This document shows positions 1 through 3,000 of a stretch of DNA of 3,092 bases, piece by piece. The stretch is from IMG/VR virus record IMGVR_UViG_2684622670_000015, positions 1 through 3,092 of that record, one strand, 5' to 3'. The stretch comes from a virus (Duplodnaviria > Heunggongvirae > Uroviricota > Caudoviricetes). Numbering within the stretch: position 1 is the stretch's first letter; each line of letters starts with the position of its first letter. A program made the position numbers.

Positions 1-3000
1 ATGACCACTTTCACCGACAAAGAACTGATTAAAGAAATCAAAGAGCGCATAGGCAGCCTGGATGTGCGGGACAATATTGAGCGCCGGGCATATGAAATTG
101 CACTGGCATCGCTGGAAGCCGAACCTGTAAGCCAAGCTTACAACTTGCCAGAATTAATCGAAGGCATGGAAGTTTACATTGATGTAAGCACTTGCGATGC
201 TGATTTAGGTAATCGCTATTCGGCACCGTCACCGAGGGCGTCAGAACTTGATACAGCCAAGAATGGTTACATCCTCCTGGTTCAGGACGCAGAGCCAAAC
301 TTCGATGTAAATGGCAACTCTCCGGTAACTCCGGATGGTTGGATAAGCTGTAGTGAGCGAATGCCGGATAGCAAAACAGCCGTTCTTGTTGCCAGGGAGT
401 TTGACAGGAGAGGTGACTGGCGAATGAAATGGGCGACTTACATCCCTGGGCATCCTGACGCTAATGATGGGTGGATAATTCCTGGTGCGTCGTGGATACC
501 ATCACACTGGATGCCGCTACCAGAACCGCCGCAGGAGGTTAACCGTGGCTAACCTGCAACTTGCCGTCAAAGGTGAATACTTCGATGCCATGATTCGCGG
601 GGAGAAAACGGAAGAGTATCGCCTGTGTAATGACTACTGGAATAAGCGAATTATGTTCCGCGAGTATGACCGACTGATTATCACAAAGGGATATCCGAAG
701 CGCGACGATTCCAGCCGCAGAATTGATGTTCCGTATGGCGGATATGAAATCAAAACAATCACACATCCGCACTTCGGTGATAAACCGGTAAAGGTATACG
801 CGATAAAGGTAAATATCGGCACTGAATAACAATCCTCGCACTAGCGGGGATTTCTTTTATCTGAAAAGGACAGAATACATGATTAACAATATTGCAAATC
901 AGTCTTCGTTTCCGGCTGCAACAATCGACAGCCAGATGCTGTTGAAAATGGTTAATGAGGCGCGGAGACTGTGCGGCGAAAAAGAAGTACGCAACAACGA
1001 CTTCATTGCACGCATCAAAGATGAACTTGAGGGGGAGGGTTACGAAATTTTCGTAACCCCCATGGATAAGAAAAAAGGCGGAGCGGATCAGGTGGTTATA
1101 GTGATGACCTACAAGCAAGCCCTGCGCGTCGCCGCACGTGAGTCGAAAGCCGTCCGTCGTTCGCTGGTCGACAAACTGGAATCAATGCAACAGCAGTTGC
1201 AACAAAAAACGACCACGAAGAAATCACCGGATGGCCTTGAAGAATTCCGTAAGGCACGCGCATTGAAAATGACCGTCGACACAATGAAAGACCTCTTCGA
1301 CTTCCTCCCTCACCTCGCACCGGAAGCTAAACAGGTCGTTGCCGCCAGCCTGATTAATCCCGTCGTCGGCTTTAGTGCAATCCCTCTCCCGATTATTGAT
1401 GAACATTACTACTCTGCATCTGAGATTGGCGCAATGCTTGGCGTCTCATCCAACAAGGTAGGACGCATAGCCAACACCTACATGCTCAAAACGGAAAAGT
1501 ACGGAAAGTGGTTCATCGACAAATCGGCGCACAGTGACAAGCAGGTCGAGACTTTTCGCTACAACGAAACTGGAGTGCACAAAATAGAGGAAATCATCGA
1601 AGGAGAGCAAAAGGTTGCATGATTTTGACAAGATAGTTTTCCCCAAATTTGGGGAAAAGCCCGAATGGCGCGGCTTACAGCAAGATAAAGACCACATGAT
1701 TTGACAAATCCGCCAGAGCTATCGCATACTGACCGCACTAGAACACATATGCGGTCATCCGCACCCGATAGCTTTGCGGCTTTTTTATGCCTGCAATTTG
1801 GCGTAGTTACATCCGTACAAAGGTCGGGTGGAGAGGCGTAATACAATACCCACAAGGGGAATATGCCCGGAGCTTCATATGTGGCTCTAGTTGACACCCG
1901 ATCACCAGCTACTAACTGGTGAGCGTAGACTAAAACACATATGGAGAAGACTATGTCTACTCAAATCACCGTAGAAACGGTACCCCAGATCAGCCATAAC
2001 CAAATCCCCGTTATTACTACTGAACTTCTTGCTCACCTTTACGGCACAGATGTAACTAATATTCGCAAAAACCACAGCCGAAACCATGAACGTTTTGTTA
2101 TTGGTAAACATTATTTTTTGCTGGAAGGTGCAGAATTGCGTGAGTTTAAGCACAGAGTGTCTTTAAGTCACTCTGTGACAATCGCCCGTAACGTTCGCTC
2201 CCTCATTCTCTGGACAGAACGAGGAGCAGCCCGCCACGCCAAAATGCTGGAAACCGATCAGGCGTGGGATGTGTTCGAAAAACTGGAAGACTGCTATTTC
2301 AGCCCGGGGAAAGCAGTACAAGCGGAACAGCACCCGCAAATCCAGCAGCAATTCACAGACGAAGAAATCATCCTCCTCTGCTACATGCAGGTACAGATGG
2401 AGAAAGCACTGGACATTAGCAAACGCCTGTATCCGATATTGAAGGAACTGAACTCATCATACGCAAGCAAGCTGTACGACATCGCGTTTGAGACTTTCTA
2501 CACGGTGATGAAAAACAGAGACGCACTGCTCAGGGAGGCAACACGAATTGACCAGACAAGTGCCCTTTTCGAACGGGCAAGACCAATGCTGAAAAGCCTT
2601 CGGGCGAGACAATTCGAATTTTAATATCAAAGGAGCTTCGGCTCCTTTTTTTACAGGTGAAACTTAATGAAATTCAAAGTCACAGGTGAATGGAATGGAG
2701 AGCCATTCAACAGGGTTATCGAAGCGGAGAACATCAATGACTGCTATGACCACTGGATGCTGTGGGCGCAGATAGCACATGCAGACGTAACCAATATTCG
2801 AATTGAAGAACTGAAAGAACACCAAGCCGCCTGATGGCGGTTTTTTATTACCTGATTTGCAGGTTCGATTCCCTATTCGGAGATAGCACTCATGCAACAC
2901 GAACTACAGCCTGATTCACTGGTTGATTTGAAATTCATCATGGCTGATACTGGCTTTGGTAAAACCTTCATCTATGACCGGATTAAGTCCGGCGACCTGC

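What the first reader, a model, noticed from the sequence alone, without database searches (positions are those of the whole stretch)
2629..2849. Unannotated 55-aa ORF insulated between two strong intrinsic terminators
This gene is below the length cutoff of the supplied track, yet it has a well-spaced RBS and is bracketed by two clean terminators only 15 bp and 0 bp from its ends. That is a classic moron-like cassette in a phage accessory region. Small, family-less proteins in this position are frequent host-takeover, superinfection-exclusion or anti-defence factors, so it is a candidate for an undescribed function. The functional suggestion is inference only.
Basis: partly seen in the sequence, partly recalled or inferred. 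Interest (0 to 1): 0.55.

Follow-up and report, generated by a model that had tools for sequence, protein, structure and literature searches.

The report
Phage lambda orf55 homologue with terminators
The small gene is real, but it is a near-identical copy of the already named, still uncharacterised orf55 gene of phage lambda; it sits at the end of the phage's early-left operon and is not a self-contained 'moron' cassette.

Summary
A 55-codon ORF (2667-2834, +) has an AGGTGA ribosome-binding site 6 nt upstream. It lies between two stable hairpin-plus-T-run terminators, at 2629-2652 and 2824-2849; the stop codon sits in the loop of the second.

The interpretation does not hold. The ORF is 94.5% identical to lambda orf55 (lambdap35, NP_597778.1). 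It matches PHROG 676 end to end, RefSeq annotates it as a hypothetical protein, and its DNA occurs in about 2,500 of 5,426 complete E. coli genomes. Purifying selection is clear: dN/dS is about 0.1-0.2, and variable columns by codon position are 17/6/43.

The flanking terminators were already predicted in lambda as t4 and t5 (Bloch 2014). No promoter lies between the upstream terminator and the ORF. That terminator belongs to the neighbouring antirepressor cassette. I infer that expression needs N-antiterminated read-through from pL.

The product is an acidic 6.5 kDa beta-beta-alpha-beta protein. T7 Gp2 is its best Foldseek match, but weakly (E 0.03). There is no sequence homology to Gp2, and Gp2's key arginines are not conserved. 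Function remains unknown; a host-protein binder, possibly of RNA polymerase, is the leading guess.

Verdict: already known, low interest.

The parts
2629..2652 (+). Intrinsic terminator upstream of the ORF. Hairpin 2629-2648 (AAAGGAGC/TTCG/GCTCCTTT), T-run 2646-2652. It is the 3' end of the antirepressor (ORF6N/P22AR_C) cassette.
   Evidence: The fold gives -11.5 kcal/mol, z -3.4. Matches in several E. coli genomes stop at 2651. In strain TUM3755 the same hairpin is followed directly by lambda-type xis with no orf55. Lambda has a different hairpin (t4) at the equivalent position.
2655..2660 (+). Ribosome-binding site AGGTGA, 6 nt before the ATG.
   Evidence: Read from the sequence. The lambda-type upstream region has GGAG at a similar spacing although its sequence differs.
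2667..2834 (+). Protein-coding gene, 55 aa, homologue of phage lambda orf55 (lambdap35). The product is an acidic (pI 4.9, net charge about -5) beta-beta-alpha-beta protein.
   Evidence: tblastn gives 94.5% identity to lambda 29121-29285. PHROG 676 matches at E 2.6e-39 over 1-55/55. The frame is intact in 98 of 99 loci. dN/dS is 0.10-0.27 and variable columns by codon position are 17/6/43. The AlphaFold2 model has pLDDT 88.9. pI and charge are.
2824..2849 (+). Intrinsic terminator overlapping the 3' end of the gene, with the TGA stop in the loop. It is equivalent to the predicted t5 of lambda and marks the junction with the integration module.
   Evidence: The fold gives -13.0 kcal/mol and the scan lists it. 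HK140's record annotates it as a rho-independent terminator. Bloch 2014 Table 4 lists it as t5-lambda. It is essentially invariant in about 100 loci, and sequences diverge right after the T-run into at least 5 different downstream modules.
1941..2624 (+). Context: antirepressor-like gene (ORF6N + P22AR C-terminal domains). The upstream terminator belongs to it.
   Evidence: Pfam PF10543 at E 6e-18 and PF10548 at E 4e-9. RefSeq names it 'antA/AntB antirepressor family protein'.
2892..3092 (+). Context: torI, the KplE1-type excisionase / recombination directionality factor and the next gene downstream.
   Evidence: RefSeq annotates torI in the matching E. coli loci. PHROG 66 'excisionase and transcriptional regulator' matches.

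Best explanation
The ORF is an orthologue of phage lambda orf55. In E. coli and Klebsiella lambdoid prophages it is the last, or second to last, accessory gene of the exo-xis ('ea') region of the early-left (pL) operon, just before the excision gene (here torI). Shown: it is a real gene under purifying selection with a conserved RBS. It travels as a unit with a terminator that overlaps its stop codon. It has no promoter of its own. The terminator 14 nt upstream belongs to the neighbouring antirepressor cassette. Inferred: the gene is transcribed only when RNA polymerase reads through the upstream terminator(s), that is, on the N-antiterminated pL transcript after induction or infection. Its own terminator would also keep un-antiterminated transcripts out of the excisionase gene. 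The product is a 6.5 kDa acidic beta-beta-alpha-beta protein with a conserved W-N-G...E-A-E-D-x-x-D surface. It most likely works by binding and modulating a host protein. RNA polymerase is the leading candidate, by the weak Gp2 / epsilon-subunit fold resemblance, but it is weakly supported.
For: Identity: 94.5% to lambda orf55; PHROG 676, full length, E 2.6e-39; the HK140 record cites lambdap35. Coding: frame intact in 98 of 99 loci; dN/dS 0.10 against Klebsiella homologues with dS saturated, and 0.21 against lambda; variable columns by codon position 17/6/43. Operon context: in the closest complete genome every gene from the cI-like repressor to torI lies on the same strand, including cIII, kil and an anti-RecBCD gene, with a lambda cIII thermoregulator RNA and a weak N-peptide match. 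Published maps place lambda orf55 under pL control. No promoter: none under the standard scan and none in 2460-2667 under relaxed criteria. Terminators. The downstream terminator is also present in Klebsiella (-13.9 kcal/mol) and, with a different stem, in a 49%-identical homologue from Flyfo siphovirus (-11.1 kcal/mol). Position next to xis holds across lambda Xis, TorI, Exc and DUF1233 modules. Protein: pLDDT 88.9; Foldseek-PDB top hits are T7 Gp2 bound to E. coli RNAP (E 0.031, TM 0.59/0.62, 25% identity), then the RNAP epsilon subunit YkzG, then p56, which reproduces Donaldson 2021. Three Gp2-family 'RNAP inhibitor' entries are among the top 30 weak BFVD hits. Net charge is -5.2.
Confidence: 0.7

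Rival explanations
1. Moron-like autonomous cassette: an insulated add-on gene expressed independently, possibly from the repressed prophage, acting in exclusion or anti-defence.
Against: No sigma-70-like promoter exists between the upstream terminator and the ATG, where only 14 nt are available, nor anywhere in 2460-2667 under relaxed criteria. GC content (0.45) matches its neighbours. Its orientation is that of the pL operon. There is no PADLOC match. Published lambda maps place orf55 under pL.
Confidence: 0.1
2. Gp2-type inhibitor or modulator of host RNA polymerase (Donaldson 2021): Orf55 docks on the beta' jaw and sigma70 region 1.1 and damps sigma70-dependent transcription early in infection.
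For: T7 Gp2 in complex with E. coli RNAP is the top Foldseek-PDB hit (E 0.031, prob 0.99, 25% identity), and the RNAP epsilon subunit is second. Gp2-family entries recur in the BFVD list. The protein is similar in size to Gp2 and has a similar negative charge. Another gene of the same region, orf73, is a proven RNAP-binding protein.
Confidence: 0.2
3. Contributor to the lambda 'bin' phenotype: together with orf73, ea22 and ea8.5 it blocks initiation of host chromosome replication.
For: A later paper summarises that earlier work suggested a role for orf73 and the three adjoining genes (ea22, ea8.5, orf55) in inhibiting host replication initiation. The gene is delayed-early and acidic, which fits a host-takeover role.
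Against: The evidence is at the level of the region only. The original paper (Sergueev 2002) could not be read here. In this window ea8.5 is absent and orf55 sits next to unrelated genes, so no fixed partnership is conserved.
Confidence: 0.12
4. Not a protein-coding gene: the stretch is conserved as regulatory RNA or DNA upstream of xis, or the antisense ORF (2664-2900, 78 aa) is the real gene.
For: The antisense frame is open in 39 of 53 unique sequences. Hairpins lie at both ends.
Against: Third-position variation dominates in the forward frame (17/6/43) and dN/dS is about 0.1. The forward frame is open in 52 of 53 unique sequences. The fold prediction is confident. Homologues at 40-50% identity keep length and core motif. 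Rfam has no match there.
Confidence: 0.02

Closest known systems
Phage lambda orf55 (lambdap35, NP_597778.1; PHROG 676)
   Same: It is 52/55 residues identical, has the same length, and is predicted to have the same beta-beta-alpha-beta fold. It has the same terminator overlapping the stop codon (t5-lambda) and the same place as last ORF before the excision gene on the pL strand.
   Different: The first codons differ (MKFK against MHFR). The upstream neighbour is an antirepressor cassette with its own terminator, where lambda has ea8.5 with t3/t4. The downstream neighbour is torI (KplE1-type), not lambda xis.
Predicted terminators t3, t4 and t5 of the lambda exo-xis region (Bloch et al. 2014, PMC4195576, Table 4)
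   Same: t5 has the same stem-loop as the window's 2824-2843 hairpin. t4 occupies the same position as the window's 2629-2652 hairpin. t3 is nearly the same sequence as the window's 831-852 hairpin.
   Different: The window's upstream hairpin has an unrelated stem (GGAGC/GCTCC against CTCGC/GCGGG) and comes from a different module. None of these terminators has been tested experimentally, as far as I could read.
T7 Gp2, inhibitor of E. coli RNA polymerase, and the Gram-positive RNAP epsilon subunit (YkzG/RpoY)
   Same: Both are small and share the beta-beta-alpha-beta topology. They are the best Foldseek-PDB matches.
   Different: There is no detectable sequence homology. Gp2's essential arginines are not conserved in the Orf55 family. 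T7 brings its own polymerase whereas lambdoid phages do not (established knowledge).
Morons of lambdoid phages (Hendrix/Juhala definition: promoter + gene + terminator inserted between conserved genes)
   Same: It is a single extra gene with its own terminator, present or absent between the same neighbours in related prophages.
   Different: It has no promoter and no atypical composition. The neighbouring antirepressor gene fits the moron pattern better: it has a promoter-like site at 1701-1730, a structured leader and a terminator at 2629-2652.

Membership tests
Lambda Orf55 family (PHROG 676) | Full-length sequence similarity to lambda Orf55 | tested here: met
   94.5% identity over 55/55 residues; PHROG 676 at E 2.6e-39, positions 1-55 of 55.
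Lambda Orf55 family (PHROG 676) | About 55 aa with three beta-strands and one helix | tested here: met
   AlphaFold2 pLDDT 88.9; E2-9, E12-19, H23-36, E41-49. This matches the published model.
Lambda Orf55 family (PHROG 676) | [quoted passage not shown] | tested here: met
   torI follows here; lambda xis follows in lambda; Exc or DUF1233 xis follows in Klebsiella. This does not hold in distant phages.
Lambda Orf55 family (PHROG 676) | Terminator hairpin overlapping the stop codon (t5-lambda) | tested here: met
   It is weak or absent in some distant members.
Moron cassette | Own promoter directly upstream of the gene | tested here: not met
   The scan finds no site near the gene. A relaxed scan finds none in 2460-2667. 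Only 14 nt separate the upstream T-run from the ATG.
Moron cassette | Own terminator directly downstream | tested here: met
Moron cassette | Inserted between genes that are adjacent in related phages | tested here: met
   In strain TUM3755 the antirepressor terminator is followed directly by xis.
Moron cassette | Base composition unlike the neighbours | tested here: not met
   GC is 0.453 against 0.41-0.48 in the flanks.
Moron cassette | Expression from the repressed prophage | not testable with these tools
   This needs RNA-seq or Ribo-seq of a lysogen.
T7 Gp2 family of RNA polymerase inhibitors | Sequence homology to Gp2 | tested here: not met
   hhalign gives 2% probability. There is no Pfam family and no PDB sequence match.
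T7 Gp2 family of RNA polymerase inhibitors | Gp2-like fold | tested here: inconclusive
T7 Gp2 family of RNA polymerase inhibitors | Two conserved arginines on the third strand that contact the beta' jaw | tested here: not met
   The equivalents named in the literature are N43 and R45. Across 13 family members position 45 is R, V, E, H, N, D or Q, and position 43 is N, D or E.
T7 Gp2 family of RNA polymerase inhibitors | Binding to the RNA polymerase beta' jaw and inhibition of transcription | not testable with these tools
   This needs biochemistry, or at least complex prediction, which is not available here.
Rho-independent terminators | G+C-rich hairpin followed by a U-run, more stable than shuffled sequence | tested here: met
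   -11.5 kcal/mol (z -3.4) with T7, and -13.0 kcal/mol (z -2.8) with T6.
Rho-independent terminators | Measured termination, relieved by N | not testable with these tools
   This needs Term-seq or in vitro transcription.

The most novel reading that the evidence does not exclude
The Orf55 family may be a temperate-phage branch of the Gp2 / epsilon-subunit fold that docks on host RNA polymerase. It would either tune host transcription during early lytic growth or occupy the beta' jaw and so protect RNAP from Gp2-type inhibitors of superinfecting T7-like phages. That would give a function to a gene carried by nearly half of the complete E. coli genomes searched.
Probability: 0.15. Interest if true: 0.55.

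Novelty: already known. Interest (0 to 1): 0.18.

Why it matters
The gene's DNA is found in about 46% of complete E. coli genomes and it is in phage lambda itself, yet I found no experimental test of its function. The genome-wide CRISPRi essentiality screen of lambda skipped it for lack of a PAM site. Assigning a function would fill one of the last blanks in the lambda map. As a discovery, though, this window adds nothing new: the gene, its fold model and its flanking terminators are already published. The useful corrections are that it is not a moron and that the upstream terminator belongs to the neighbouring cassette.

Tried and rejected
- Pfam, NCBIfam and PADLOC scans of the 55-aa protein returned nothing.
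- A PDB sequence-profile search gave only chance hits to nitrite reductases, E about 0.3.
- The genome-contig scan returned mostly lambda DNA contaminating unrelated assemblies (Shewanella, Pseudomonas, Kitasatospora and others, often contigs of about 48.4 kb). It says nothing about host range.
- The profile search of 1.84 billion representatives found only 53 hits, so the family is narrow and no annotated distant relative emerged.
- The afdb50 fold library was unavailable.
- The lambda ribosome-profiling paper (PMC3718152) is not held, so translation could not be checked. The lambda interaction-map and codon-adaptation papers do not mention orf55.
- The antisense 78-aa ORF was rejected on the codon-position pattern.
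- A promoter whose transcript would start inside the upstream hairpin, and so escape termination, was considered. It was rejected because no acceptable -35/-10 pair exists.
- A role tied to excision was considered because of the constant position next to xis. It was downgraded because distant homologues lie elsewhere in the early-left operon.

Full report
**What is in the sequence**

The window carries six same-strand ORFs:
- a DUF551 protein (1-552);
- an ASCH-like protein (about 545-829);
- a 247-aa protein matching PHROG 1726 'anti-repressor' (879-1622);
- an ORF6N + P22AR_C antirepressor (1941-2624);
- the 55-aa ORF in question (2667-2834);
- a 66-aa excisionase-like protein (2892-3092).

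The 55-aa ORF has AGGTGA 6 nt before its ATG.

- Upstream: AAAGGAGC-TTCG-GCTCCTTT at 2629-2648 with a run of seven T to 2652. It gives -11.5 kcal/mol, z -3.4, and 0 of 200 shuffles fold as well.
- Downstream: AAGCCGCC-TGAT-GGCGGTTT at 2824-2843 with six T. It gives -13.0 kcal/mol, z -2.8. The TGA stop lies in its loop.

The consensus scan finds 9 terminator-like sites in the window against 3.3 +/- 1.5 in shuffles.

**What the ORF is**

tblastn against phage genomes finds 87 records. These include phage lambda itself, at 29121-29285 on the complementary strand, with 94.5% identity over all 55 residues. The lambda reference record calls this gene lambdap35, a 'hypothetical protein predicted by GeneMark', lying between ea8.5 and xis. 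HK140's record cites the same lambda protein.

The protein matches PHROG 676 end to end at E 2.6e-39. RefSeq annotates the E. coli copies as a 168-nt hypothetical protein. The ORF's DNA is found in 2,487 of 5,426 complete E. coli genomes, and 2,201 of them cover at least 80% of it.

In the literature this gene is orf55, one of the seven ORFs of the lambda exo-xis region described by Sergueev et al. 2002. Published maps place it under pL control. So the gene is neither unannotated in public records nor family-less.

**Is it a real gene**

Among 99 full-length copies in fetched loci the frame is intact in 98. Homologues from Klebsiella prophages, 75-76% identical at the protein level, were compared with the window copy. 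They give dN 0.16-0.18 with synonymous sites saturated, so dN/dS is about 0.10; against lambda it is 0.21. Variable alignment columns fall 17/6/43 on codon positions 1/2/3, and the two other forward frames are never open. These estimates rest on only 55 codons, but the direction is unambiguous. The antisense 78-aa ORF is open in only 39 of 53 unique sequences and is rejected.

**The terminators and the mosaic structure**

Bloch et al. 2014 (PMC4195576, Table 4) already list three predicted terminators around lambda orf55.
- t5 has the same stem-loop as the window's downstream hairpin.
- t4 occupies the same place as the window's upstream hairpin but has a different stem (CTCGC/GCGGG).
- t3 is nearly the same sequence as the window's hairpin at 831-852.

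In about 100 loci the downstream hairpin and T-run are essentially invariant. The sequences diverge immediately after the T-run into at least five different downstream modules:
- lambda xis;
- torI;
- an AlpA-like gene as in HK140;
- a 114-aa protein;
- a 71-aa hydrophobic protein.

Klebsiella copies are followed by Exc-type or DUF1233-type excisionases. One of them keeps a strong terminator over the stop codon (-13.9 kcal/mol), while the other has only a weak hairpin (-6.0 kcal/mol). A 49%-identical homologue in Flyfo siphovirus has a hairpin with a different stem over its stop codon (-11.1 kcal/mol). A further homologue has only a weak one, and the Morganella phage homologue overlaps the next gene. 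The gene and its 3' terminator therefore travel as one module.

The upstream terminator belongs to the antirepressor cassette, not to this gene. Several E. coli matches to the window stop at 2651. In strain TUM3755 the same hairpin is followed directly by lambda-type xis and int, with no orf55.

**Why it is not a moron**

A moron has its own promoter. Only 14 nt separate the upstream T-run from the ATG. The standard scan finds one promoter-like site in the whole window, at 1701-1730. My relaxed scan finds none between 2460 and 2667. Base composition is unremarkable. The gene has the orientation of the whole early-left operon. In the closest complete genome every gene from the cI-like repressor through cIII, kil and the anti-RecBCD gene to torI lies on one strand. 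That locus also carries the lambda cIII thermoregulator RNA and a weak N-peptide match, E 8e-4, below Pfam's cut-off.

The best-supported reading is an inference from this anatomy and from lambda biology. orf55 is expressed from the N-antiterminated pL transcript, and the string of intrinsic terminators is read through only by modified polymerase. The terminator just before the excisionase gene would also keep stray transcripts out of it. Two moron traits are met: the gene has its own terminator, and it is present or absent between the same neighbours.

**The protein**

AlphaFold2 on a 15-sequence alignment gives pLDDT 88.9 with strands 2-9, 12-19 and 41-49 and a helix at 23-36. This agrees with Donaldson 2021 (PMC8614690).

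Structural searches gave weak matches only.
- Foldseek against the PDB puts T7 Gp2 bound to E. coli RNA polymerase first (E 0.031, TM 0.59/0.62, 25% identity). The Gram-positive RNAP epsilon subunit and the uracil-DNA glycosylase inhibitor p56 follow. No hit reaches E 0.001.
- The viral library gives no significant hit, but three Gp2-family entries are among the top 30.

No PDB chain matches.

A profile search of 1.84 billion representatives finds only 53 relatives. Aligning the distant ones shows W9 and E19 invariant, and F3, T6, N10, D22 and D25 nearly so. The published Gp2-arginine equivalents, N43 and R45, are not conserved. The protein is acidic (pI 4.9, net charge -5.2).

I conclude that it is probably a small protein-binding factor. 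RNA polymerase is the leading target but is weakly supported. Membership of the Gp2 family is not established.

**Other functional leads**

A later paper summarises earlier work suggesting that orf73, ea22, ea8.5 and orf55 have a role in blocking initiation of host replication. That evidence is at the level of the region, and the original paper could not be read. The lambda CRISPRi essentiality screen did not test lambdap35 because it lacks a PAM site. No paper in the held library reports an experiment on orf55 alone.

**Verdict**

It is not a moron. Its function is still unknown, which keeps a small residual interest.

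Noticed in passing
window 1822-1911 (+), with a promoter-like site at 1701-1730: A full-length Rfam sRNA-Xcc1 (RF02221) match, 63.8 bits against a gathering score of 53, lies in the 320-nt gap about 40 nt upstream of the ORF6N/P22AR_C antirepressor gene. The same RNA sits in the same place in two other E. coli prophages (L001 7855-7944, L112 3292-3380). A published note reports it upstream of an ORF6N gene in APSE phages. It may therefore be a leader element of ORF6N genes and not a free-standing sRNA. With the TTGACA-18-CATACT site and the terminator at 2629-2652, this neighbouring gene looks more like a moron than orf55 does.
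   Followed up: partly
window 831-852 (+): The hairpin AATCCTCGCACTAGCGGGGATT plus a T-rich tail (-13.1 kcal/mol, z -3.9) is nearly the same sequence as predicted terminator t3 of lambda. In lambda it sits between ea8.5 and orf55; here it follows the ASCH-like gene. Conserved terminators seem to act as junctions where lambdoid modules are exchanged.
   Followed up: partly
loci L006-L026 (genome-contig scan): Hits at 95% identity occur in assemblies labelled Shewanella, Pseudomonas, Chromatium, Oceanobacillus, Kitasatospora, Paenibacillus and others, often on contigs of about 48.4 kb or tiny low-coverage contigs. These look like lambda DNA contamination of the assemblies, not real hosts.
   Followed up: no
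window 879-1622 (+) and 1637-1658: A 247-aa protein has no Pfam family but a strong PHROG 1726 'anti-repressor' match (E 2.6e-96), so the window carries two antirepressor-like genes in a row. Strain TUM3755 has it as a pseudogene with an internal stop. A perfect 22-nt palindrome, TTTTCCCCAAATTTGGGGAAAA, follows its stop codon without a T-run.
   Followed up: no
window 2667-2678: E. coli DNA matches to the ORF often begin at its 12th base. The first four residues come in two versions (MKFK here, MHFR in lambda), each linked to a different upstream region. This suggests a recombination junction inside the first codons of the gene.
   Followed up: partly
protein P0097 (141 aa): One database protein reads through both TGA codons (as W) from orf55 into torI, which lie in the same frame. 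This is probably a gene call made with a genetic code in which TGA is tryptophan, not a real fusion.
   Followed up: no
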